This document shows, one piece after another, positions 5,907-19,021 of a DNA stretch of 32,000 nt. Both the position numbers and the translations under genes were made by a program. Origin of the DNA: Candidatus Saccharimonadota bacterium (GTDB lineage Bacteria > Patescibacteriota > Gracilibacteria > BD1-5 > UBA2023); the NCBI GenBank assembly GCA_042852035.1, contig BAAFHK010000002.1, positions 210,001-242,000 on the forward strand, in the 5' to 3' direction. Every line of letters begins with the position of its first letter. Positions within the stretch are counted from its first letter, which is position 1. The notes beneath the pieces are model-generated. The model worked only from the letters and a program-made list of their open reading frames with translations. It was not told the DNA's origin and ran no database searches.

Positions 5907-6970
5907 TTTCCTTCTTCTTTCGCGAGGGATTTTCCTTCTTCCTTAAGGGCAAGTTGACCACATGCGGCATCTATATCATCCCCCATTGTATGTCGAACTG
6001 TAGAAGGGATTCCTGCATCTTCAAGAGTACTTTGAAATTTCTTTATCATAATCTTCGAAGTTGGTTGGAATCCATTTCCCATAATTCCTTCTCAGGGATT
6101 ATAAGGAATAAAGTTTACATGGGCAAGCTTTCCCTTAAGAAGGTTTGCGAGTTCATGAGCATATTCTGGTCGGTCAGTAACTCATGCTATCATGATATAT
6201 TCATAAAAAATTCTTTTATTTGTCTTTCATACATATTCATCAAGAGCCTTCATAAGTTCATCTATAGGATAAGTATTTTCAACTGGCATAATACGCTTTC
6301 GAGCTTCATCATTCGGGGCATGAAGAGAGATAGCGAGGGAAATCTGAGGAAAATCTTCTGCAAGACGAAGAATTCCAGGAACAATTCCACAAGTCGAAAT
6401 AGTTATACGACGATTTGAGAGGTCAATTTTTTTCTGAGCGCTCGCGATATAAATAGATTCTTTGACATTTTCGTAGTTTAGCATTGGCTCCCCCATTCCC
6501 ATATAGACAACATTTCGAATTTTTTTATCTTCTTTTGCGAGTAAAAGATTTGCAATCATGATCTGATCAATAATCTCATAAAATTCAAGATTTCTTATGA
6601 GTCCAAGTTTTCCTGTAGCGCAAAATGAACAAGCCATAGGGCATCCTGCTTGAGAGCTAACACAGAGGGTGTTGCGCCCAGAAAGATGACGCATGATTAC
6701 GGCTTCTATCATCTTTTCATCACTTGTTCGAAGAAGAAGTTTTGTTGTTTGTCCATCGTCACTCGTAACTTCTGAGTGAATCTGAAGAGAGTTGTAAAAA
6801 CAATTTTCTAAAAGAATCTCTCGTATTTCTTTTGGGAGAGTATCGATTTTCTCGAAATCAGTTATAAGATTCTTATAGATAGCATTTTCTATTTGTGCAT
6901 ACCTAAATTTTTTATGACCATTTTTTTCGAGGATTGCTATGATGTTTTTTTCGTCGTGAATAGAGAACAT
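5870..6970 (-). CDS. rlmN: 23S rRNA/tRNA m2A methyltransferase RlmN (radical SAM)
   Basis: Motifs are [18 protein letters not shown] (radical-SAM CxxxCxxC), MGMGEP and TISTCG. With TGA=Gly the frame passes TGA at 6227 and at 5903 and ends at TAA 5870-5872. An alternative TTG start lies at 7003. Confidence 0.9.
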
Positions 6971-8868: not shown

Positions 8869-9420
8869 TTATTTTTTTGTTTTTACGCTGGCGAATTCAA
8901 TCTCAACTGGAGTATCACGACCAAGGAGATTAATCATAATTTTTACCATACCCTTTGCAGAATTTACTTCAATAATCTTTCCTTCACTGCCTTCAAAAGG
9001 ACCATTTTTTACCGTTACATAATCACCAACTTGCATATCAGTTTTGTATTCTTCGCTTTTTTCAGTGAGGATACCTTTGAGCTTATCAAGTTCTTCTCCA
9101 CTTACAGGTACTGGGACTGTACCCGCACCAAGAAATCCTGTTACATTCGGTGTATTTCTTACGATATACCAAGATTCATTGGTTACAATCATGTTAACAA
9201 GGATATAACCAGGGAAGATATTCTTTTTTCGAGAAATCTTTTTACCACCCGCTCGAACAGAAACTGAGTCATGGGTTGGAACAAATACATCGAGAATATA
9301 ATTTTCGAGACCAAAAGCCTCTCTTCGTTGCATAAGTGATTGCCGTACATTTTCTTCGGTTCCAGAAATAACACGGATAACGTACCACTCACCAAGAGGT
9401 TTTGTTGAGAATTCAAACAT
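8869..9420 (-). CDS. nusG: Transcription termination/antitermination factor NusG
   Basis: An intact 183-aa ORF with an NGN domain (WYVIRVISGTEENV) and a KOW domain (GDYVTVKNGPFEGSEGKIIEV). It ends in TAA. Confidence 0.95.
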   Translation of the reverse strand: MFEFSTKPLGEWYVIRVISGTEENVRQSLMQRREAFGLENYILDVFVPTHDSVSVRAGGKKISRKKNIFPGYILVNMIVTNESWYIVRNTPNVTGFLGAGTVPVPVSGEELDKLKGILTEKSEEYKTDMQVGDYVTVKNGPFEGSEGKIIEVNSAKGMVKIMINLLGRDTPVEIEFASVKTKK

Positions 9421-9444
9421 AAAATTGAAAAATGATGTGATTAA

Positions 9445-9807
9445 TTATTTGTTAGCTCCACTCACTGAAAGTTCAGTTTTTTCTGGACTTGAAGAAGAGA
9501 CAGGATTTACTTCTACTTTTGCCCCAGAGAGAGCATTTTTTCTTCTTTCGATTTCATTCTTCAGATTTTCCATATCTTGTTCATTTACAGTACTTTCTCC
9601 TGACACTGTTGATGAAACAACTGCATCATGAGGAAATATATCTCGAACGCCCTTAAGTCAAAATCGAATCCCATATCCTACAAGGGATAGAAGTGTCGCC
9701 ATAATGATAATGGTTCCTACCGTATAGAGCATATATTTTTTGCTTTCAGCATTTGTTGGCCAGACTACATGATCGAGCTCTTCAAGAGATTTTTTAATAA
9801 ATGACAT
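9445..9807 (-). CDS. secE: Preprotein translocase subunit SecE with a C-terminal extension of about 70 aa
   Basis: It starts MSFIKKSLEELDHVVWPT and has a single TM (YTVGTIIIMATLLSLVGYGI). The frame reads through TGA 9658-9660 to TAA 9445-9447. Confidence 0.8.
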
Positions 9808-9871: not shown

Positions 9872-9894
9872 TATTAAAATCCCCTCTCGGGGAT
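9872..9894 (-). terminator. Rho-independent terminator upstream of the secE promoter
   Basis: The stem is atcccc (9879-9884) / ggggat (9889-9894) with loop tctc. On the minus strand it is followed by UUUUAAUAU. Confidence 0.5.
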
Positions 9895-10150
9895 GTCAAC
9901 GTGGTGATAATAGTAATTTTTTTAGAAAAAACAAGGGAATTTTCTGGAGCTCCTTGGTGGGAGCAATCTTCGAACTTTTATAGAGAATTTCGATAGGGTA
10001 ACAAAAGAATATTGAGAGAATTTTTAGTATATAGATCTATCTGAGTTTAGGAGAATTTGAAAATTACTAGAGTTATTGTGTATTTTAAGGGAAAGTTTGT
10101 TTGATTCTTTATTTATAATAATCCCATGAAGTAACTCTAACTTCTTAAAT

Positions 10151-13100
10151 CTATAAGCCTAATTTATCTTCTATAAATTTGAATATAGGTATAAATCAGT
10201 CAAATAAATCATTTCATAATTCTTTAGTATTTCCTAGCATTCATTTTCAAAGCTCTTCTATAAGTGTCGCAAAATTACATTTTAACTTATCTCATCAGAT
10301 TTCAAGGTAGCTAGAAGAGTTTGGTAAATTAATCTTTCTAAATAATGGACTTTCACAAAATTTATAATCTTTATCAAAGACTTTATTTAATGAATCCTTT
10401 TTTCAATAAAATAAATGCTCTATTGTTAACTGAGCCTTCTCTTGTAGATGAATGAATCAGCTACTATCATCTTGGATTTGAGGATTAATTTTTACTTGGT
10501 ATTGAATCTCATGATGTAAATCTTCAAAAGGTAAGGTTAATATATAGAAATCTAAACTTGTATGCTTTTTATAAATTCATTCATAACTTAATTCTTTTCA
10601 CCATTCCTTCTCTTTAAATCAGATTTTATATCTATTTGGATTATCTATTGAACTAAAACCCTCAAAATCGAAATCAAAAAGTCAGAACCTTATATTGACT
10701 CTTTGATACTCTTGAATATCAGTATACATTTGCTTAAGTATTCAGCTTGCTCATCATCAAATAAGGATACGTAATCAAAATTTCTTTATTTTTCACTGAA
10801 ATTCTAAAACCTCTTTCGCAATTTTAACTATTTGATAATCTGTCTTTCATTCTACATATAGAATAGTATTTAAAGAGGTATTTTCAATATATGACTCTAA
10901 AGAGCTAATCTTTGTAATAAGTTCATTTCTGACTTCTTTTTCCTTAACAAGACTCTCATTTATTTTATTAAATTTATCTTTCCAAGATAATGCCTCGGTT
11001 ATTAACTCATCTTTTAATTTTACCTTAAATTTCTCCTTTATTTTAGGCAGATATTTATATTCGAAGTTCTCGGTTGAGCGTCATTTATTTATGCTGACGA
11101 GATTTATAATAACCCGATACAGTCATTTATTTCATATTGATAAAAAATATCTTGTACAAGCATCTTGTATGTAATCGTAATAGTGGTAGTTTCGTTTTGT
11201 AAATGAATCTTTAAGAAGCTCTAGAAATGCTTTCTTAAATGATTTATCTTTTAAGTATCAGAATGGATCTATAAAGTTCCTTTCACTTGTTATTTCGTTT
11301 TCAAAGTCTGAAGGGGAATATACCACTAATTCTGGGTGATCAAATTTCATCTCAACTCAATGAAGATTCATAATCTTACTTATTCTCCATTGAGTAGCCT
11401 CATTATCTTGAAAATGCTTCACTAATATCTTATTAGATATATCTGATAGTGGATTTTCTGTAATTATTCAATCATTTCTATCTTTAAAATAAGAAAATAA
11501 ATCCTTTATATCTTCATAGGTAAAAAATGGAATTTTTCCAGATTTCTTTCGAGGTTGTCTATATATAAAATTTAGTAACTCCTCTTTATTATACTGAGAT
11601 ATCTCCTCATCTAGAAGTATCGATTTCAGAGTTTTTGTAACATCATTAACGTATGTTTTTGTCTTGAATTGTGCAATTTGTTTTTCTAACAAGTGAATAA
11701 AATTACCAGTCATATGGTACTTTAATCCATCAGTTCTTGATCAGTCATAAACAGAAATAATATATCTTATTGTTTTAGGGTTTAGCTTATATCATTTATC
11801 TAAAAGCTCCATTATAATGCTTAGTCACTCGCTATAAGCGAAAGGCAGATAAGAGTATATTTTATCTTTAAACTTTCATAGATCAATTCACAATGATTTT
11901 CATACAATCAAGGTGGTCTCAAAGTAGTGTTGTACATACCAATCACTTGTGTATTGTGAGGATCAATTAATTTCTCTTTTTTCAAAAATTAATTCAGCTT
12001 TTTTAGGATCTAAAGTTTTATCTTCAAGAAATTCAATTATCTTATCTTTTAATAATTTTGTTTGTTTTGTATTAAATAATTCTTTTTCAGTGTGATACTT
12101 ATAGACTAAAAAATAAAAGTTATTATATCATTTTAAATATTTAAATCCAAGTTCTATTTCTTCAAATCTTTTCTTATTTCTTTCTTCTAGCTCTTTATCA
12201 TTCTTTTCTTTGTAATGCTTTCTTGTTTCCTCAATATTAGCGATTTCATCTTTTAGATTTTTTTCAAATTCTATTAGTAATCCATCTTTTATATCAGAGG
12301 AAATGCTACTTTGATATTTAATATATTCATATAATGGAAAGTCAATTCTCCATTGATTTTTTTGTTTTTCATTTTCACAGAAACTTACTATTTCCTCCTT
12401 GGTTAAAAGCTTAGAAAGAATAAACTGCAAATGAGTGTCGTAAGAAAGTAAAATTTCTGCTCTATCTTCGTTTTCTGGTATTATATCTGAAAGATTGAGT
12501 CATAAGATTTGTGTAAAATAATTACTACCACTACTTTGTAGGTCTTGTAACATATAATCAACAATTGATGCTTCTTTTAATAGGCTACTAAAGCCATCAT
12601 ATGGTCTAGATAGTAAGCAAAGCTTCTTGAAGATTCCTTTAATGATTTCAAATATTACCTCAAGATAAGCATCATTACCCTTTATTCGGTCCAGAAATAA
12701 TCGAGCACTTTCTTTTTCTATAGACAATACAGCATCAATTTGCGTTTTTCAAATTATCCCATTAGTGTTTATGCTAATTTCTTTAGAAATTTCTCGAAGT
12801 AGCCCTAATAATAAATTTTCTGGAATTTTAGAAAAATACTTATTAAAATCCCTATGCATAGAATAAGGATAAATAGTTTTTTCGTAGGTTAATTTGAAAG
12901 CTTTTAGTAGTTCGCTATAGTTCTCATTTTCTCAAAATATCTTTATAAAAAAATATCACCATATATGTTCATATGATTCTTCTATCGCTCTATTGAACCA
13001 TTCTGTAAAGTAATCAATATTTTTTTGTCGAGTAGCGTATATTATCTCTAGGGCATCAATTCTAACATTATCAGAAGAATGACTATCTAATATTCATTCC

Positions 13101-13411
13101 ATTCTTGAGCATATTAAACTTAGTGTCTCTTGATTTAAGATTTTATTATTTTCAATCAACTTACATAGTAGATTTAAAAGATTATACGTATCAATATAAG
13201 TTTCTTTACTTATCGAATCAGTAAGCGTTTCTAAAATAAAGTTAGTATCTTCATTTTCATTGAACCTTAAAATTAATATTTTAACTTCATTTTCTTTATC
13301 AGAGAAAGGTCAAAAAAGTTCTATTTTATCTTTTTGTATAAGAATGAATTCTTGTTGAAATTTAGAGGGCATATATATGATTTTATCGTTTAATACATTG
13401 TAGATTTTCAT
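10151..13411 (-). CDS. Orphan 1,086-aa protein with a C-terminal TOPRIM/DUF4435-like motif triad
   Basis: I checked every codon of this frame by hand from ATG 13409-13411 to TAG 10151-10153. There is no TAA/TAG, and there are about 39 in-frame TGA. An in-frame TAA lies just upstream at 13418-13420. Track fragments 11468..11713, 12128..12430 and 12500..12727 all share the frame. The motifs are LYVEG(TGA)KTD (10838-10855), IGGGASG (10742-10762) and FDFDFEG (10658-10675). Confidence 0.8.
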
Positions 13412-13547
13412 ACAATATTACAAGTCTAATTATTGCAATATTCAAATAGTCTATATAATAAAATTCTTCTGAAAGTCTTAGTTTCACTCCTGGTTTTAAT
13501 GGCGCCATTCTATCAAATTTATTTTGCTTATAATGATACTATTAACT

Positions 13548-13745
13548 CTATGAAAACAATTCAATCATTTTCATCTGATACTTGCTATATGCAAGATACA
13601 GACTGTCGAGATATTCTTGTACCAAGTGCTGGTCGTTCTGCTGGTTGCCCTTGAGGGCTAAAAGCACAAAGTCATTAGTATATCTAGGAGAATTATGATA
13701 TAAGGAGAGACCATAGTGTGGCTCATAACCACAGACCAGCACCAT
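13548..13745 (-). CDS. Doubtful small ORF (65 aa) in the GC-richer intergenic patch
   Basis: It runs from ATG 13745 to TAG 13548-13550 (MVLVCGYEPHYGLSLYHNSPRYTNDFVLLALKG...). It overlaps an equally plausible 59-codon plus-strand ORF (13499..13678). The patch may be RNA rather than coding. Confidence 0.2.
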   Translation of the reverse strand: MVLVCGYEPHYGLSLYHNSPRYTNDFVLLALKGNQQNDQHLVQEYLDSLYLAYSKYQMKMIELFS

Positions 13746-13801
13746 AAAGCTTAAAATATTTATCAACTATAAATGATAGATATTTTGTTATTAACTTTTA
13801 T

Positions 13802-14371
13802 TTACTTCTTACAAGAATGAGTAGATATGATATATTTATATCATTTTCAATATGTTTTTTCGCAATATATATTTGCTTTAGTGAGATCATATGTGATAAA
13901 TTTTGTACTTTTTATTGAATAAGAAATTTGGTTATCTATGAAAAAGTCCCCCTTTTCTAATTCATTATTATACATAAGATTCACTACAAATTTCTTTCAC
14001 TTATAGTTTTTTGGTAAGGTAAATTTATCAACTGTAATTTCAGCAATAGTAGGAATTGAATAGCGATCATTGTATTGAATTTTCATTATTCATTTTTTTA
14101 CAGATAGGATATTAATATAAGTTGAATAGGCTTTATTTGTAAACATTCAATTTTCCCACTGATGCCCCATCATTGATAGTCTACACCATTGCTCTGGAGT
14201 ATACCATTTACTTCATCAGAATTCGGCATATATCATCTTTTGTATTTTGATACAATTAGGATAAACCTCTGTCTGATCAAATATTCATTCTCAATTTTTA
14301 GCATATGAATCAGTATGAATCATCGCAGACGATAAAGAAATAATCAGAAAGTATATAATTCTTTTAAACAT
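13802..14371 (-). CDS. Small secreted hypothetical protein (189 aa, 4 Cys)
   Basis: Code-25 ORF from ATG 14369-14371 to TAA 13802-13804, absent from the track because of about 10 TGA. It has a signal-peptide-like N-terminus (MFKRIIYFLIISLSSAMIHTDSYA). I recognise no family. Confidence 0.6.
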
Positions 14372-14376
14372 AGAAA

Positions 14377-14400
14377 TAGCGTTATAAAAGTATAACGCTA
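14377..14400. repeat. Perfect 10-bp inverted repeat (palindrome) with a 4-nt spacer
   Basis: The sequence is tagcgttata aaag tataacgcta. It lies 6 nt from the start codon of the secreted-protein gene. Confidence 0.7.
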
Positions 14401-14416
14401 AAAAGTATTTTGTGAT

Positions 14417-14558
14417 GTTTTAGCAAACAAAAGGGCAACCTAAGTGTCCAATGTTCGCTAAAACGTATCTTTTCTAACCTTCAAAAGGAATGAAAAGGGG
14501 GACAACAATAAGTTGCCCTTCTCTTTCTTGAAAGTTAGAAAACACAGATACATTTTAG
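14417..14558 (+). other. Nested and mutually exclusive helices; candidate ncRNA, leader or recombination-site region
   Basis: Helices are gttttagc (14417-14424) / gctaaaac (14457-14464); ttttctaac (14470-14478) / gttagaaaa (14534-14542); and ttcaa (14480-14484) / ttgaa (14528-14532). In addition, gttgccctt (14512-14520) can pair perfectly with aagggcaac (14431-14439) or imperfectly with aagggggacaac (14495-14506). A 22-codon mini-ORF lies at 14490..14558. Confidence 0.35.
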
Positions 14559-14656
14559 CTGAAATATTGTACTCAAAACTTGAATTTTTGCAATCCACGA
14601 CCATTGTCTTTTTCCTAATAAAAGTATAATTCTACTTATGTGTTCCTTATATTTTG

Positions 14657-14756
14657 CTTTTCTCTTTTCTTTTTAATGTGGTGTTGAAAGGAAGGAGAAA
14701 AGGAAGAAGTAAAAACATATTAAATTTCGTCTATACGGACGACTAACCAACACCAC
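14657..14756 (+). promoter_or_regulatory. Structured 5' leader of the recombinase gene (pyrimidine/purine hairpin plus possible pseudoknot)
   Basis: A 16-bp stem pairs 14657-14672 (cttttctcttttcttt) with 14687-14702, including two G-U pairs that exist only in the plus-strand RNA. Loop segment gtggtgttg (14678-14686) is perfectly complementary to caacaccac (14748-14756), 3 nt before the ATG. A candidate -10 TATAAT lies at 14625-14630. Confidence 0.4.
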
Positions 14757-14759
14757 AGT

Positions 14760-16880
14760 ATGACTACACCACAAGTCAAAACCTCTAAGCTTAAAACGCC
14801 AATATTCGCCTATCTAAGACGAAGTACCAAAGATAAACAAGAGGTATCATTAGAAAATCAAGCTGATAACATCGATTTGATAATAAAGGATAATTGATTT
14901 TCAAAGGATGATGTAGTATTTTTTGAGGAGTCTCGTTCTGCTTATGACTGAATTAAACAGAGATGAACAAGTGCTATTGTTCGAAAAAGAATTGAGTTTG
15001 ATAAAATGCTAAAAGCAATAGATCAGTCAAATATTCCTTGTATTATTCTGGTAAGAGACTCTTCTCGTTTATCAAGAAATCAAATAGATAATATTGAAAT
15101 TCAAAAAAGACTTTTTGGTATATATGGTAATCAAAATAAAATTCAAAAGATAATATTCTACTGATGAGAATTTTGGACAAAAGATAGTGACAGAATTATT
15201 GTTGATAACTGTTTAGCAAAGAATTATCACGAAAGTATTACTACTTGAGCAAGGTCGCAAAATGGCGTTATCGCACAGTTGAGACGAGGATATTTTGTTT
15301 ATAATCCACCATTCTGACTGAATAAGATAAAAAAATGAACAGCAGTATACTTAGAGAGAAATGACAAAATATCCTTTGTTAAAAGAGCTTTCGAAATGAA
15401 GATTGAATGATATAACCATAAAAAGATTTGTGAATACCTACAAAAAGAAGGTTGATATAAGATTGACGATAAGCATTTAACAGAAAGAATCTTCAATAAT
15501 ACTATCTATATCTGAACATATACTCATCCAACTGTCTGAGAGATTTTTGAGTGACTTCAATTTCTTGAATGAGAACCTCCAATTAGTAAGGAATTATGGA
15601 ACAAAACGCAAAATGTTTTATGAAAAAAGAAGTCTCGATATGGGGAACTTCAAGAATGAGATATTTTGTGAGATAAATTGAGGACGCCAAATGGTAGAAG
15701 AATGAGCCGATATTTTGCTAAAGATATATATATCCAATACACAAATGCTATAGAGAAAATATATATTGCGGAGAGAGCTATATTGGAATGATTTATAGAT
15801 CAAATCAAAATTATACTTGAATCAATAATGTTTCAGCATTTTTTGATATATGCGAACGATGTAAGAAAAGCTAAGATTGATACCAAAATTAGAAAAGAAG
15901 ATGCTATAAAACGATGAAAGAAAGCATTAAAAGAAATGTGAAAATCCATTTCGGATTTTCACAAGCCAGTTATTGATAATGAACTAGGGTATTCTTGAGA
16001 AGAAAAAGAAAAACTGAAAGCAGAATTGGAAGAAAGTTTTCTAAAAGAATTATGAGAATGATTGATACTCGATGAGATGATTGCCAAGGAGGATGGCAAG
16101 GGGGATGATTGGTTTTTAGAGGCTTATGATATGTGGAAGTCTGCATCTTATAAGACGTTTGCTGAGTGAGTTGAGCAGAAAGAGTCAATTAATTTGCACT
16201 CACTTTATGATGTCCAAAAAGAAGAGATCCGTAAACTGCAAAAAGCAAAACTTCATTTAGAAGAAGTCAATAATAACGCAACTAGCTTAGTAGCAGACGG
16301 AACTATTTCGAAAGAAAATTATACAAAACTTATAGAAAAGAATGCAATGGAAGTATCTTTGATTGATGAAAGAATAGCTGATGCAGAAAAAACTTGAGAA
16401 TTACAACAATATTTGGACCGATTGCCAGAGGTTCTTCAAAAAACTTTTGAACTAGCTAGTAGAGTAGACCAGAAAAAGGAAATCAAGGATATGAGGGATG
16501 AAATAATCAAGCTTATACAAATTACTACTTTCGAACTCGAAATTAATAACAAAAAAGAGCTTAAAATAAAGCTCTATGATGTGCTTACATCACTTTTTTT
16601 TTGAAATAAGTCCCTAATGGAGCCACTGGCGGGAATCGAACCCGCGACCGCGCCCTTACCATGGGCGTGCTCTACCACTGAGCCACAGTGGCAAAAAATA
16701 TTTAAATTGCGCTGAATTTGAATAAAAACAAGTGTTTCCTCTTCAAACTTCATATTTTCAATATTTTCACCGACTCATAAATTATATGAGCTCACTGAGT
16801 ATAAAGTTTTCTCGAAAAATTCAAGCTTCAGTAGGAAGAATTTTATCTTCAGAAATTCTTATAAGTCATCAGGCCTGTAG
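14760..16880 (+). CDS. Large serine recombinase (integrase); the recognisable protein ends near 16601 and the literal code-25 frame continues to TAG 16878-16880
   Basis: The resolvase catalytic domain reads FAYLRRS(14823-14825)TKDKQ ... ILVRDSSRLSRN. The recombinase domain reads RRGYFVYNPPFG(TGA)LNK and AFEMKIEGYNHKKICEYLQKEG. A long C-terminal coiled coil follows. There are about 25 in-frame TGA. Track ORFs 16194..16397 and 16413..16604 are in the same frame. Confidence 0.85.
16618..16692 (-). tRNA. tRNA-Thr (anticodon GGU), CCA encoded
   Basis: It folds as a cloverleaf by hand. The acceptor stem is GCCACTG/CAGTGGC, the D stem GCTC/GAGC, the anticodon stem CGCCC/GGGCG with loop A-T-GGT-A-A, and the T arm GCGGG-TTCGATT-CCCGC. 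The discriminator is T, followed by CCA. Confidence 0.9.
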
Positions 16881-17929: not shown

Positions 17930-18553
17930 TTAGAGGGCTTTTGCTTCGATATCTTGAAAAATTTCTTCTTCTCATTGGTTGGCATTTATAACGTGAACAG
18001 TGTGCCCATGTTCCCTCCAAACATCCAAAAGGGGAAGTGTGTCAGATATGGACCAAGAGATACGTTTTCGTATTGCATCTTCCTTATCGTCATCACGAGT
18101 GACGAGTTTATTGCCAGTTTTTGGATTAATATCTCAAGTAAAACTTGCTGGGAATGTCTCCTGAGTGACAGGATCAATACGACGACCACAGAGACGTTTT
18201 ACAGCAGTTTCTTCATCCAATTCTAGATAAATAACATCAAAATTTCCCCATACCTTCTCCATTGCATCATTTTGTTCTTTTGATCGAATAGCTCAATCTA
18301 TAAGGATGTGTTTATCTTTATTTTCATCTATAAATTTCTTTGAAAGTCGTACGATATATTCTGTTGGAACTTTTAGTCCTTGATCCATAAACGATTTTGC
18401 ATGAATTCCATCTGGTGTACCACTTTGGATGAGTTTTCTGAGTTCACCACCCATCTCAAAGAGAATATAATTATTTTGATATTTCTCGAGGATCTTTCTT
18501 GCTTGAGTTCCTTTTCCTGATCATTGTATCCCGACAAGCATGATATTTTTCAT
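17930..18553 (-). CDS. adk: Adenylate kinase
   Basis: 207 aa with TGA=Gly. The P-loop is MLVGIQG(TGA)SGKGTQA. Other motifs are ILIDG(TGA)AIRS and the LID-region CGRRIDPVT. It ends in TAA at 17930-17932. Confidence 0.95.
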
Positions 18554-18612
18554 AAATATTTGGTTAGTTATTTCTTATTCTCTATCCCTGAGAGTCGGGA
18601 TAGAGAATACGG

Positions 18613-19021
18613 TACTCTCGAAAAGGGATAATAAGCCGGATTCTGTACCTCGATGCATATCTATCTAGGCTATGGATTACTCCATAACTCAAGCGGAGTA
18701 TATCAAGATTGGCTGCTCTAGGGCATTATCAATTCTGATACCATTCTCCTTGCATCAGAGAGGGTTTTCCACCCCTTACGGGTTCATCTGTAGCCCTTCC
18801 TTTTTACTTATGAATATTCATAAAATCAAAAGTGAGACACCAAATGACTTTTCACCTTTTACTAGAAAAAATTCTAGTGAGTATAGTCTCTGTGGCACTT
18901 TCCGTACTCTACATTTCATTTATATTGTAGAGCCAAAGCCGTTAGCTTTTCTCCTCCTAGAGTGATGTCCAGACTTTCCTCTCATAGAGTATGAGCATGC
19001 ATCTGTCCCTTTTTGAGAGTA
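18613..19021 (-). ncRNA. rnpB: RNase P RNA (bacterial)
   Basis: Both universally conserved P4 strands are present on the minus strand: GAGGAAAGUCUGGAC (plus 18967-18981) and ACAGAAUCCGGCUUAU (plus 18631-18646). The terminal P1 helix pairs UACUCUCAAAAAGGGA with UCCCUUUUCGAGAGUA (plus 19006-19021 / 18613-18628). The 550-nt gap has no ORF. Confidence 0.8.

What the first reader, a model, noticed from the sequence alone, without database searches (positions are those of the whole stretch)
10151..13411. Giant orphan ORF (1,086 codons) with a C-terminal TOPRIM/DUF4435-like triad: candidate undescribed defence-type effector
I walked every codon of this minus-strand frame. It has no TAA or TAG over 3,261 nt of roughly 25%-GC DNA, which is very unlikely by chance. 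An in-frame TAA lies immediately upstream of the ATG. By hand count it has about 39 TGA codons against about 14 GGN, so TGA is its main glycine codon and it is invisible under the standard code. The first 850 or so residues are helical-looking and rich in K/E/I/L/N. I can find no Walker A motif or other motif I can name there. Then comes L-Y-V-E-G-K-T-D (10838-10855), I-G-G-G-A-S-G about 30 residues later (10742-10762), and F-D-F-D-F-E-G about 59 residues after the Glu (10658-10675). An acidic E-G...D, a glycine-rich turn and a DxD, in that order and spacing, is the TOPRIM pattern. It is seen in OLD-family nucleases and in DUF4435 proteins such as the AriB effector of PARIS. Here that pattern is fused to a huge unknown N-terminal region instead of an ABC/AAA ATPase. 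The gene sits on a recombinase-bearing island, which fits a sensor-plus-nuclease single-gene immunity or abortive-infection module.
Basis: partly seen in the sequence, partly recalled or inferred. Interest (0 to 1): 0.85.

Follow-up and report, generated by a model that had tools for sequence, protein, structure and literature searches.

The report
HEAT-repeat protein with OLD-type TOPRIM nuclease
A 1,086-residue gene in a bacterium that reads TGA as glycine encodes a long helical-repeat scaffold ending in an OLD-type TOPRIM nuclease domain; it rides on a small integrative island, and its relatives sit beside known anti-phage systems, so it is probably an undescribed single-gene defence nuclease.

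Summary
Window 10151-13411 (-) is one 1,086-codon ORF with 39 in-frame TGA codons. TGA means glycine here, not tryptophan.

The C-terminal motifs are real and invariant across distant homologues: E854/D858 and D913/D915. Once homologues are translated with table 25, several match Pfam OLD-like_TOPRIM (best 4e-8, above the curated cut-off) and the PADLOC Old, GajA and RT-Toprim models. The family profile aligns to the TOPRIM of an ABC-ATPase/TOPRIM protein at 95% probability (hhalign). DUF4435 itself never matched, and Foldseek gave no significant hit.

The first ~800 residues are a confidently predicted HEAT-like solenoid with no NTPase, followed by a long helix. The gene is not an orphan. About ten full-length homologues exist, all in TGA-recoded genomes. 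Five of the ten loci lie next to Hachiman, BREX or restriction genes (types I and III, GmrSD), and five next to recombinase or integrase genes. Distant relatives carry a NACHT NTPase at the N-terminus and a PD-(D/E)xK-like C-terminus in place of TOPRIM.

My best reading is an NTPase-less sensor-plus-nuclease defence protein carried by a serine-recombinase island at tRNA-Thr. No function has been tested. A conserved, structured RNA-like element lies just upstream.

The parts
10151..13411 (-). Complete gene for the 1,086-aa HEAT-solenoid/TOPRIM protein (table 25; stop TAG at 10151-10153)
   Evidence: Searches give the ORF statistics. It is identical to P0001. One search supports TGA = Gly.
11018..13411 (-). 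Residues 1-798: almost all-alpha HEAT-like solenoid with no NTPase motif
   Evidence: AF2 model with pLDDT 87.5. Foldseek matches SF3B1, CAND1 and importins at E 3e-5 to 1e-3. No Walker A and no Pfam hit.
11102..12214 (-). Residues ~400-770: the most conserved module, shared with ~1,350-aa NACHT-HEAT-PD-(D/E)xK-like relatives
   Evidence: phmmer hit ranges. In alignment A5, P523, E706, F713 and Y747 are invariant.
10895..11017 (-). Residues 799-839: a single long helix linking the solenoid to the nuclease domain
   Evidence: DSSP on the AF2 model gives helix H799-839. A coiled-coil or oligomerisation role is inferred only.
10154..10870 (-). Residues ~848-1086: OLD-like TOPRIM nuclease domain plus a C-terminal helical part
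   Evidence: AF2 model with pLDDT 79.9 and pTM 0.83 shows a beta1-alpha1-beta2-alpha2-beta3-alpha3 core. Homologues hit PF20469 and PADLOC Old, GajA and RT-Toprim. hhalign to P0041 gives 95% probability.
10838..10852 (-). E854-G-K-T-D858: the TOPRIM glutamate and an acidic residue four positions on (BpOLD has E400/E404 at the same spacing)
   Evidence: Invariant in 10 and 11 sequences. One search gives the codons, with Gly = TGA. BpOLD residues are from PMC6755086.
10667..10675 (-). D913-F-D915: the DxD metal-binding motif just after beta3
   Evidence: Invariant. The strand position comes from the AF2 model.
10418..10420 (-). E998 (in IEHLFY), a near-invariant glutamate in a helix after the core; candidate second-metal ligand
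   Evidence: Conserved in at least 90% of sequences. The helix is H162-166 of the domain model. The catalytic role is inferred by analogy with BpOLD E508.
10280..10282 (-). K1044, an invariant or near-invariant lysine in a C-terminal helix; candidate counterpart of BpOLD K562
   Evidence: Invariant in A3 and at least 90% conserved in A2 and A4. The role is inferred from PMC6755086.
13625..13743 (-). Conserved structured RNA-like element about 215-330 nt upstream of the start codon (strand assumed to be that of the gene)
   Evidence: The upstream region is 70-76% identical to L001, against 63% for the coding DNA. The consensus fold has 25 pairs, 5 compensatory and none broken, while slid controls give 0-1. 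No Rfam match.
9879..9894 (-). Terminator-like hairpin downstream of the gene, just before the secE promoter-like site
   Evidence: Consensus scan only.
13802..14371 (-). 189-aa ORF with a hydrophobic N-terminus, on the island between the gene and the recombinase; function unknown
   Evidence: No Pfam hit and no homologue in the related loci.
14760..16880 (+). Large serine recombinase of the island. Homology ends near residue 637 (about nt 16670). The ORF then runs on through the tRNA gene because no TAA or TAG occurs.
   Evidence: Pfam Resolvase + Recombinase. It is 37% identical over 639 aa to the recombinase beside the homologue in L001.
16618..16692 (-). tRNA-Thr(GGT), the likely integration site at the right end of the island
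   Evidence: ARAGORN and Rfam tRNA at 68 bits. Related recombinase genes overlap tRNA-Cys and tRNA-Trp in L001 and L002.
9900..16617 (.). Low-GC island between secE/nusG and tRNA-Thr (the left boundary is approximate)
   Evidence: GC is 26-31% at 10001-16000 and 32-40% in the rest of the window. secE and nusG are identified by Pfam. No flanking direct repeats were found.

Best explanation
The gene encodes a single-chain sensor-plus-effector protein of the anti-phage or anti-mobile-element kind.

**Architecture.**
- About 800 residues of HEAT-like alpha-solenoid act as a binding or sensing scaffold.
- A roughly 40-residue helix links the solenoid to the C-terminal domain.
- The C-terminal domain is an OLD-type TOPRIM, which cuts nucleic acid by two-metal catalysis. 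The proposed catalytic residues are E854, D858, D913 and D915, probably with E998 and K1044.

**Proposed sequence of events.** The nuclease is held inactive. Binding of an invader-derived protein or nucleic acid to the solenoid releases it or drives oligomerisation. The TOPRIM domain then nicks or degrades DNA, or cleaves tRNA, as other OLD-type TOPRIM effectors do. This stops the invader or kills the infected cell.

**How it differs and how it travels.** Unlike OLD, Gabija, PARIS or STAND/Avs proteins, it has no NTPase, so activation would not depend on NTP. The gene is cargo of a ~6.7-kb integrative island driven by a large serine recombinase and inserted next to tRNA-Thr.

**Shown here:** the ORF, the genetic code, the homologues, the conserved catalytic residues, the TOPRIM homology, the HEAT-like fold, and the island and defence-rich contexts.

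**Inferred only:** nuclease activity, the substrate, the trigger, autoinhibition, and the defence phenotype.
For: **TOPRIM identity**
- E854, D858, D913 and D915 are invariant in ten homologues that are 19-52% identical. The same holds in 8- and 11-sequence alignments of the domain.
- The AF2 domain model (pLDDT 79.9, pTM 0.83) places the Glu just after beta1 and the DxD just after beta3.
- Table-25 translations of homologue C-termini hit Pfam OLD-like_TOPRIM in 4 of 8 members. The best is 4.1e-8 at 34.1 bits, against a curated cut-off of 23.2.
- The same sequences hit PADLOC RT-Toprim (about 1e-6 to 4e-7), Old (2e-6), GajA (9e-5) and AriAB (1e-3).
- hhalign of the family profile against P0041 gives probability 95.4% and E 2e-8 over the core. 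P0041 is an AAA_21/AAA_15 ABC ATPase followed by a TOPRIM.

**Scaffold**
- The AF2 model of residues 1-840 has pLDDT 87.5 and matches HEAT-repeat proteins.

**Modular, defence-like evolution**
- The middle module is shared with ~1,350-aa proteins. These carry an N-terminal NACHT/STAND NTPase and a PD-(D/E)xK-like C-terminus in place of TOPRIM.

**Genomic context of homologues**
- Hachiman HamA and HamB lie immediately upstream, with DUF2726 downstream.
- BREX brxABC lies nearby.
- A type III restriction-modification system and an integrase are adjacent.
- GmrSD lies downstream.
- AAA_13 and type I HsdR lie immediately upstream.
- Serine recombinases are adjacent in the window, L001, L002 and L010.

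**Mobility**
- The flanking genes differ in every locus.
- The island in the window has low GC.
- Recombinase genes overlap three different tRNA genes.

**Precedent**
- OLD-type TOPRIM effectors cleave DNA or tRNA in defence: PMC10568477, PMC11464382, PMC12409363 and PMC12445682.
Against: - The window protein itself gives no Pfam or PADLOC hit.
- Foldseek of the C-terminal model found nothing at E <= 1e-3 in PDB or BFVD. The top PDB hits are generic flavodoxin-like folds, and BpOLD 6nk8 has only E 0.09 and TM 0.31.
- The profile search of PDB sequences gave only a weak hit to 1t6t, at E 0.11.
- Two of the ten contexts (L004, L005) show no known defence gene or recombinase nearby.
- The context evidence covers only ten loci, and no enrichment statistic was computed.
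- No homologue was found on IMG/VR viral contigs.
- No known defence gene sits on the island in this window.
- No experiment exists for any family member.
- In E. coli YbjD, an OLD protein, the TOPRIM domain was reported dispensable for the phenotype (abstract of PMC13261556). Conserved TOPRIM residues therefore do not guarantee that the nuclease is the effector.
Confidence: 0.6

Rival explanations
1. The protein is a maintenance or competition factor of the mobile element, not host immunity. It would act as an addiction toxin or an exclusion nuclease that benefits the serine-recombinase island. Possible modes are killing cells that lose the island or destroying rival elements. The upstream RNA element might act as its regulator or antidote.
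For: - The gene travels with a homologous serine recombinase in the window and in L001. It sits beside recombinases or integrases in L002, L007 and L010.
- The conserved structured RNA-like element lies between the recombinase and the gene only in the two loci that share the recombinase.
- The island carries essentially only this gene as cargo.
Against: - Half of the loci show no adjacent recombinase.
- No conserved protein partner or antitoxin was found across loci.
- The RNA element is absent from the other loci.
- Adjacency to Hachiman, BREX and restriction genes fits host defence islands.
- The two roles are not mutually exclusive.
Confidence: 0.2
2. The TOPRIM domain serves DNA transactions of the island itself, such as priming, nicking for replication or transfer, or help with excision and integration. 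On this view the protein is a replication or recombination accessory and not a toxin.
For: - TOPRIM domains occur in primases and topoisomerases (established knowledge; PMC10568477).
- The gene is adjacent to serine recombinases.
- In L010 it shares an element with a VapE/DUF5906 primase-helicase-like gene.
Against: - Profile matches are to OLD-like_TOPRIM, Old, GajA and RT-Toprim. The general Toprim model matched one member only weakly, at E 0.06.
- There is no zinc-binding domain, primase polymerase domain or helicase-interaction domain. The N-terminus is a HEAT solenoid.
- Many loci lack any recombinase or replication gene.
- Relatives replace TOPRIM with a PD-(D/E)xK-like domain and add a NACHT NTPase. 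That is typical of conflict systems, not of replication proteins.
Confidence: 0.07
3. The protein is a cellular RNA-processing or scaffold protein. Examples would be an RNase M5-like TOPRIM ribonuclease tethered to a HEAT platform for rRNA or tRNA maturation, or a protein whose TOPRIM domain is no longer catalytic.
For: - The only PDB sequence hit of the family profile is 1t6t, at E 0.11. This is probably the A. aeolicus RNase M5 homologue discussed in PMC6755086, though that identification rests on my memory.
- HEAT solenoids are common scaffolds in RNA machinery such as SF3B1 and importins.
Against: - Distribution is patchy and the genomic position differs in every locus.
- The gene lies on a low-GC island beside a recombinase.
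- All four core catalytic residues are invariant, which argues against a dead domain.
- The 1t6t hit is not significant.
Confidence: 0.05

Closest known systems
OLD-family nucleases (P2 Old, Thermus and Burkholderia OLD, Gabija GajA; Pfam OLD-like_TOPRIM PF20469)
   Same: The C-terminal TOPRIM carries a Glu and an acidic residue four positions on, then DxD about 55-59 residues later. A conserved Glu and Lys follow in the helical part. Homologues match PF20469 and the PADLOC Old and GajA models, and hhalign links the family to an ABC-ATPase/TOPRIM protein. Both occur in defence or mobile-element contexts.
   Different: There is no N-terminal ABC ATPase. An ~800-residue HEAT-like solenoid with no Walker A takes its place. 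No UvrD-like, retron or AriA partner gene is adjacent. The window protein itself falls below every model's threshold. The structural match to BpOLD 6nk8 is not significant.
PARIS AriB (DUF4435 TOPRIM tRNA nuclease released from the AriA ATPase scaffold)
   Same: The concept matches: a TOPRIM nuclease kept in check by a large scaffold and released on sensing a phage protein (PMC11464382, PMC10802264). One family member hits the PADLOC AriAB model weakly, at 1e-3.
   Different: Pfam DUF4435 never matched. Scaffold and nuclease are one polypeptide here. The scaffold is a HEAT solenoid, not an ABC ATPase. The substrate is unknown.
RT-Toprim retron effectors (PADLOC RT-Toprim_I-C; Retron-Eco2)
   Same: These give the most frequent PADLOC matches for the C-terminal domain: 3 of 8 members, at about 1e-6 to 4e-7. 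In both, a TOPRIM effector is fused to a large non-ATPase N-terminal module. Retron-Eco2 depends on a non-coding RNA (PMC12405507), and a structured RNA-like element lies upstream here.
   Different: There is no reverse-transcriptase domain. The upstream RNA element occurs in only two loci, and nothing links it to the protein.
STAND/NLR-like antiviral proteins (Avs, bNACHT) and the uncharacterised ~1,350-aa NACHT-HEAT-PD-(D/E)xK-like relatives found here (P0007, P0008, P0024, P0031)
   Same: The logic is shared: a repeat or solenoid sensor plus a nuclease effector in one chain. The middle module (residues ~400-770) is homologous to these relatives at E 1e-14 to 1e-4. Their nuclease effector likewise sits at the C-terminus, directly after the shared module.
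   Different: The window protein has no NACHT or other P-loop NTPase. Its effector is TOPRIM instead of PD-(D/E)xK-like. The family is so far confined to TGA-recoded genomes, whereas the relatives are in standard-code genomes.

Membership tests
TOPRIM superfamily | Conserved glutamate at the C-terminal end of the first strand | tested here: met
   E854 is invariant in 10-, 8- and 11-sequence alignments. In the AF2 model it follows strand 14-18 of the domain directly.
TOPRIM superfamily | DxD motif at the end of the third strand | tested here: met
   D913 and D915 are invariant. They follow strand 72-77 of the domain model.
TOPRIM superfamily | Rossmann-like beta-alpha-beta fold that resembles solved TOPRIM domains | tested here: inconclusive
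   The order of secondary-structure elements fits. Foldseek gave no hit at E <= 1e-3, 6nk8 scored E 0.09 and TM 0.31, and the top hits were generic flavodoxin-like folds.
OLD-like_TOPRIM (Pfam PF20469) | Score above Pfam's gathering threshold (23.2 bits) | tested here: inconclusive
   The window protein has no hit. Among homologues, P0038 scores 34.1 bits (met), P0018 22.2 and P0002 19.1. hhalign of the family profile to the TOPRIM of an OLD-type protein gives 95% probability.
OLD-family nucleases (classes 1-4) | N-terminal ABC ATPase domain with a Walker A lysine, or a separate adjacent ATPase in class 4 | tested here: not met
   There is no Walker A and no AAA or ABC Pfam hit. The N-terminus is a HEAT-like solenoid. 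No ATPase gene lies on the island.
OLD-family nucleases (classes 1-4) | Two-metal catalytic set as in BpOLD (E400, E404, D455, D457, E508, K562) | tested here: inconclusive
   E854, D858, D913 and D915 match in order and spacing. E998 and K1044 are conserved candidates for the last two (PMC6755086). No structural superposition was possible.
DUF4435 (PF14491) / PARIS AriB | Match to the DUF4435 profile | tested here: not met
   PF14491 is absent from all Pfam scans at E <= 10 for the window protein and all eight C-terminal domains. The only related signal is one weak PADLOC AriAB hit at 1e-3.
DUF4435 (PF14491) / PARIS AriB | Adjacent AriA-type ABC ATPase gene | tested here: not met
   No such gene lies on the island.
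STAND / NLR-like defence proteins (Avs, bNACHT) | NACHT or NB-ARC type P-loop NTPase | tested here: not met
   It is absent from the window protein. It is present only in the distant ~1,350-aa relatives, where NACHT scores up to 29.2 bits.
STAND / NLR-like defence proteins (Avs, bNACHT) | Repeat or solenoid sensor region plus an effector domain in the same chain | tested here: met
   A HEAT-like solenoid is joined to a TOPRIM domain. A sensing role is inferred only.
Defence-island gene (guilt by association) | Recurrent proximity to known defence systems in unrelated genomic positions | tested here: inconclusive
   Five of ten loci lie next to Hachiman, BREX, type I or type III restriction-modification genes, or GmrSD. 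No background statistic was computed, and the window's own island carries no known defence gene.
Anti-phage function | Protection from phage, or toxicity dependent on the catalytic residues | not testable with these tools
   This needs expression of a TGA-to-GGN recoded gene.

The most novel reading that the evidence does not exclude
This may be a defence receptor of a kind not yet described. An NTPase-free HEAT solenoid would directly gate an OLD-type TOPRIM nuclease in a single chain. The family would be specific to TGA-recoded candidate-phyla bacteria, and so invisible to standard-code defence finders. It appears related to NACHT-type receptors, differing by loss or gain of the NTPase and by a swapped effector nuclease. 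In some elements it may work with a cis-encoded structured RNA.
Probability: 0.4. Interest if true: 0.72.

Novelty: new variant of a known kind. Interest (0 to 1): 0.6.

Why it matters
- **A new defence architecture.** OLD-type TOPRIM effectors described so far are coupled to an ABC ATPase (OLD classes 1-4) or to a reverse transcriptase (RT-Toprim retrons). A HEAT solenoid would be a third kind of partner. It would also be an example of nuclease gating without NTP hydrolysis.
- **A link to NLR-like receptors.** The family shares a module with NACHT-bearing proteins that carry a different nuclease. That gives a natural pair for asking what the NTPase contributes in such receptors.
- **A blind spot in current surveys.** The immune repertoire of Gracilibacteria and Absconditabacteria is poorly charted. 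Here most database copies were translated with Trp in place of Gly. The TOPRIM signal in profile searches appeared only after retranslation with table 25. Similar families are probably being missed systematically.

Tried and rejected
**Searches that gave nothing useful**
- Direct Pfam and PADLOC scans of the window protein and of its last 250 residues found nothing.
- Searches of PDB sequences found nothing significant, with the family profile or with two single homologue domains. The best was 1t6t at E 0.11.
- Foldseek of the C-terminal model against PDB and BFVD gave no match at E <= 1e-3.
- Word-indexed homologue searches did poorly on this low-complexity, AT-rich protein. They returned 3-4 hits, against 35 from the exhaustive search.
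The multiple alignments used for modelling therefore contain Trp where Gly belongs in most rows.
- No flanking direct repeats (att sites) were found for the island. This is expected for a serine recombinase.
- No conserved protein partner of the gene was found across loci.

**Readings I rejected**
- I considered that the 81-aa plus-strand ORF at 13433-13678 is a gene. It has no ATG start and is only 44% identical at the protein level, while the DNA is ~70% identical and shows compensatory base-pair changes. An RNA or regulatory element fits better.
- TGA as Trp (table 4) is rejected by the codon alignment.

**Hunt for more copies of the RNA element**
- The covariance model found none in the other loci.
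- A 17-mer scan of genome contigs returned only chance matches in GC-rich genomes, so that scan was wasted.
- A two-block pattern found nothing in metagenome contigs.

**C-terminus of the NACHT relatives**
- It could not be confirmed as PD-(D/E)xK by profile. Only 1 of 11 members gave a weak PDDEXK_3 hit, and there was no PDB hit. That assignment rests on the motif alone.


Full report
**1. The observation**

The minus strand of window 10151-13411 is a single ORF of 1,086 sense codons ending in TAG. It contains 39 TGA, 14 GGN and 7 TGG codons, and an in-frame TAA lies two codons before the ATG.

At this strand's composition (26.4% GC) the chance of such a run without TAA or TAG is about 2e-37. 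The other five frames contain 31-98 such stops, and shuffled sequence never exceeded 139 stop-free codons.

TGA encodes glycine. In a codon alignment of eight family members, TGA columns pair with GGN 142 times and with TGG 5 times. The glycines of the E-G and GGG motifs are TGA codons. The protein is identical to a GenBank 'hypothetical protein' of a Candidatus Altimarinota metagenome-assembled genome.

**2. The setting**

The gene lies on a low-GC stretch: 26-31% at 10001-16000, against 32-40% in the rest of the window. This stretch sits between the core genes secE and nusG (8869-9807, minus strand) and tRNA-Thr(GGT) at 16618-16692.

The island also carries two other genes:
- A 189-aa ORF of unknown function (13802-14371, minus strand).
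- A large serine recombinase (14760 onward, plus strand; Pfam Resolvase and Recombinase). Its reading frame runs into and through the tRNA gene.

A terminator-like hairpin and a strong promoter-like site separate the gene from secE. No att-type direct repeats were found, as expected for a serine recombinase.

**3. The gene is not an orphan**

An exhaustive search found 35 relatives. They fall into two groups.

*Group A: about ten full-length proteins of 1,034-1,086 aa, 19-52% identical to the window protein.*
- Every one for which I fetched DNA carries 20-34 in-frame TGA codons, so all come from TGA-recoded genomes.
- Most database copies were translated with table 4 and show Trp where Gly belongs.

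*Group B: proteins of about 1,330-1,370 aa from standard-code genomes.*
- They match only residues ~400-770 of the window protein.
- They start with a NACHT/STAND P-loop NTPase and a HEAT region.
- They end in a domain with invariant E...D...ExK, which resembles PD-(D/E)xK. No profile match confirmed this.
- A metagenome scan recovered 13 more relatives from standard-code genomes, most of them full-length group B proteins, and none from viral contigs.

**4. The C-terminal domain**

*Conserved residues.* Across group A, E854, D858, D913 and D915 are invariant. E998 and K1044 are nearly so.

*Predicted structure.* An AlphaFold model of residues 836-1086 (pLDDT 79.9, pTM 0.83) has a beta1-alpha1-beta2-alpha2-beta3-alpha3 core. 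The Glu lies just after beta1 and the DxD just after beta3. That is the TOPRIM arrangement.

*Profile searches.*
- The window protein gives no direct Pfam or PADLOC hit.
- With correct table-25 translations, 4 of 8 family C-termini match Pfam OLD-like_TOPRIM. The best is 4.1e-8 at 34.1 bits, above the 23.2-bit cut-off.
- Three of 8 match DUF3226.
- PADLOC models RT-Toprim, Old, GajA and AriAB also match.
- A profile search recovered P0041, which is the C-terminal part of an AAA_21/AAA_15 ABC ATPase followed by 'YVEGESD...GGGG...LFDFD'. hhalign gives 95.4% probability and E 2e-8 over 80 core columns.

*Comparison with BpOLD.* The spacing E-x3-D ... 55-59 residues ... DxD mirrors BpOLD E400/E404 and D455/D457, which bind the two catalytic metals (PMC6755086). 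E998 and K1044 are plausible counterparts of E508 and K562, but that is inference.

*What did not work.* Foldseek found no significant structural match; BpOLD 6nk8 ranked 7th at E 0.09. DUF4435 never matched. The domain is therefore an OLD-like TOPRIM by sequence-profile and motif evidence, with fold evidence that is compatible but not decisive.

**5. The N-terminal 800 residues**

An AlphaFold model built from 27 sequences (pLDDT 87.5) is an alpha-solenoid, all helical apart from a short beta-hairpin at 474-489. It ends in one long helix, residues 799-839. Foldseek matches HEAT-repeat proteins such as SF3B1, CAND1 and importins at E 3e-5 to 1e-3. There is no Walker A and no NTPase.

**6. Genomic context of relatives**

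The ten group A loci have ten different neighbourhoods.

| Locus | Neighbours |
|---|---|
| L002 | Hachiman HamA + HamB immediately upstream; DUF2726 downstream; serine recombinase at tRNA-Trp |
| L006 | BREX brxA/B/C nearby |
| L007 | Type III restriction-modification system and an integrase |
| L008 | GmrSD downstream |
| L013 | AAA_13 and type I HsdR immediately upstream |
| L010 | Element with a VapE-like primase and a serine recombinase |
| L001 | Recombinase 37% identical to the window's, overlapping tRNA-Cys |
| L004, L005 | No known defence gene or recombinase nearby |

The tenth locus is the window itself, described in section 2. No protein partner is conserved across loci. Two group B genes that I checked lie at a prophage edge and near EVE and DprA-like genes. 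This is the pattern of a mobile, variable-position gene that keeps company with defence systems, not of a core gene. No formal enrichment test was run.

**7. Mechanism**

My best-supported reading is a one-chain sensor-effector.
- The solenoid binds an invader-derived ligand.
- This frees the TOPRIM nuclease or assembles it, possibly through the long linker helix.
- The nuclease then cuts DNA or tRNA, as OLD, Gabija, PARIS AriB and P2 Old do (PMC10568477, PMC11464382, PMC12409363, PMC12445682).
- No NTPase is involved.

Two observations support a modular conflict-system origin: the alternative nuclease domain in group B, and the presence or absence of a NACHT module around a shared solenoid segment. 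The domain identities and contexts are shown. Activity, substrate, trigger and phenotype are inferred.

The rival readings are weighed separately in this report: an addiction or exclusion factor of the element, a replication or recombination accessory, and a cellular RNA-processing enzyme. The first overlaps with the favoured reading and cannot be excluded.

**8. Comparison with known systems, and novelty**

The protein works like an OLD-type or Avs-type nuclease receptor but is a member of neither family. It fails the defining ATPase/NTPase feature of OLD classes 1-4 and of STAND proteins. It does not match DUF4435/AriB. No PADLOC model covers it. A text search found no paper describing a HEAT-TOPRIM single-gene system. 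I rate it a new variant of a known kind.

**9. Side finding**

The ~340 nt upstream of the gene are better conserved with L001 (70-76% identity) than the coding DNA is (63%). Within it, a ~120-nt segment (window 13625-13743, minus strand) folds into a multi-stem structure. Between the two sequences, all 25 pairs are kept and 5 show compensatory changes. Slid controls give 0-1.

Rfam has no match, and no further copies were found. With only two sequences this is suggestive, not proven. Whether it belongs to the gene or to the recombinase element is unknown.

Noticed in passing
window 13625-13743 (-), within the conserved stretch 13412-13760; counterpart in L001 at about 9623-9743 (+): A structured RNA-like element lies upstream of the gene and has higher GC than its surroundings. 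All 25 consensus pairs are kept between the two copies, and 5 show compensatory changes. There is no Rfam family for it, and it occurs only in the two loci that share the serine recombinase.
   Followed up: partly
window 14760-16880 (+) with tRNA-Thr 16618-16692 (-); L001 6845-8770 (-) with tRNA-Cys 6827-6900 (+); L002 16806-18602 (+) with tRNA-Trp 18546-18620 (-): In three loci the 3' end of a large serine recombinase gene overlaps the 3' end of a convergent tRNA gene, and the tRNA differs each time. In the window the frame continues about 65 codons beyond the homologous end, right through the tRNA, because no TAA or TAG occurs.
   Followed up: partly
P0007, P0008, P0024, P0031; loci L135, L137, L139-L141, L144, L146: An unannotated family of ~1,350-aa proteins occurs in standard-code bacteria. 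Their layout is NACHT/STAND NTPase, HEAT region, the module shared with the window protein, then a C-terminus with invariant E...D...ExK (PD-(D/E)xK-like by motif only). One sits at a prophage edge next to a terminase and a ParB-methylase.
   Followed up: partly
P0002, P0003, P0004, P0006, P0010, P0012, P0018, P0019, P0038 (database copies of homologues): Public protein collections hold these sequences translated with TGA = Trp (2.5-3.8% Trp). Hits to the Pfam OLD-like_TOPRIM and PADLOC Old and GajA models appeared only after I retranslated the DNA with table 25. This shows how recoded lineages escape domain annotation.
   Followed up: yes
window 13802-14371 (-): A 189-aa ORF with a hydrophobic, signal-peptide-like N-terminus lies on the island. 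It has no Pfam hit and no homologue in any related locus.
   Followed up: partly
P0040 (297 aa, JGI metagenome): This short stand-alone protein resembles the C-terminal domain, with 'GLFDFDEEG' and the C-terminal 'FDNFIPLF' tail. It lacks the E-G-x-x-D motif, having 'VFVEDLYVE' there instead. It may be a degenerate or regulatory relative.
   Followed up: no
L013 1194-5384: In one homologue's locus the gene follows directly after an AAA_13 ATPase gene and a type I restriction HsdR gene. As I recall, AAA_13 is the family that includes the anticodon nucleases PrrC and RloC.
   Followed up: no
L002 9461-9949 and L005 13228-13704: Small genes of 162 aa and 158 aa abut the homologue with 3-5 nt gaps, one upstream and one downstream. 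They are unrelated to each other and have no Pfam hit. They may be locus-specific partners.
   Followed up: no
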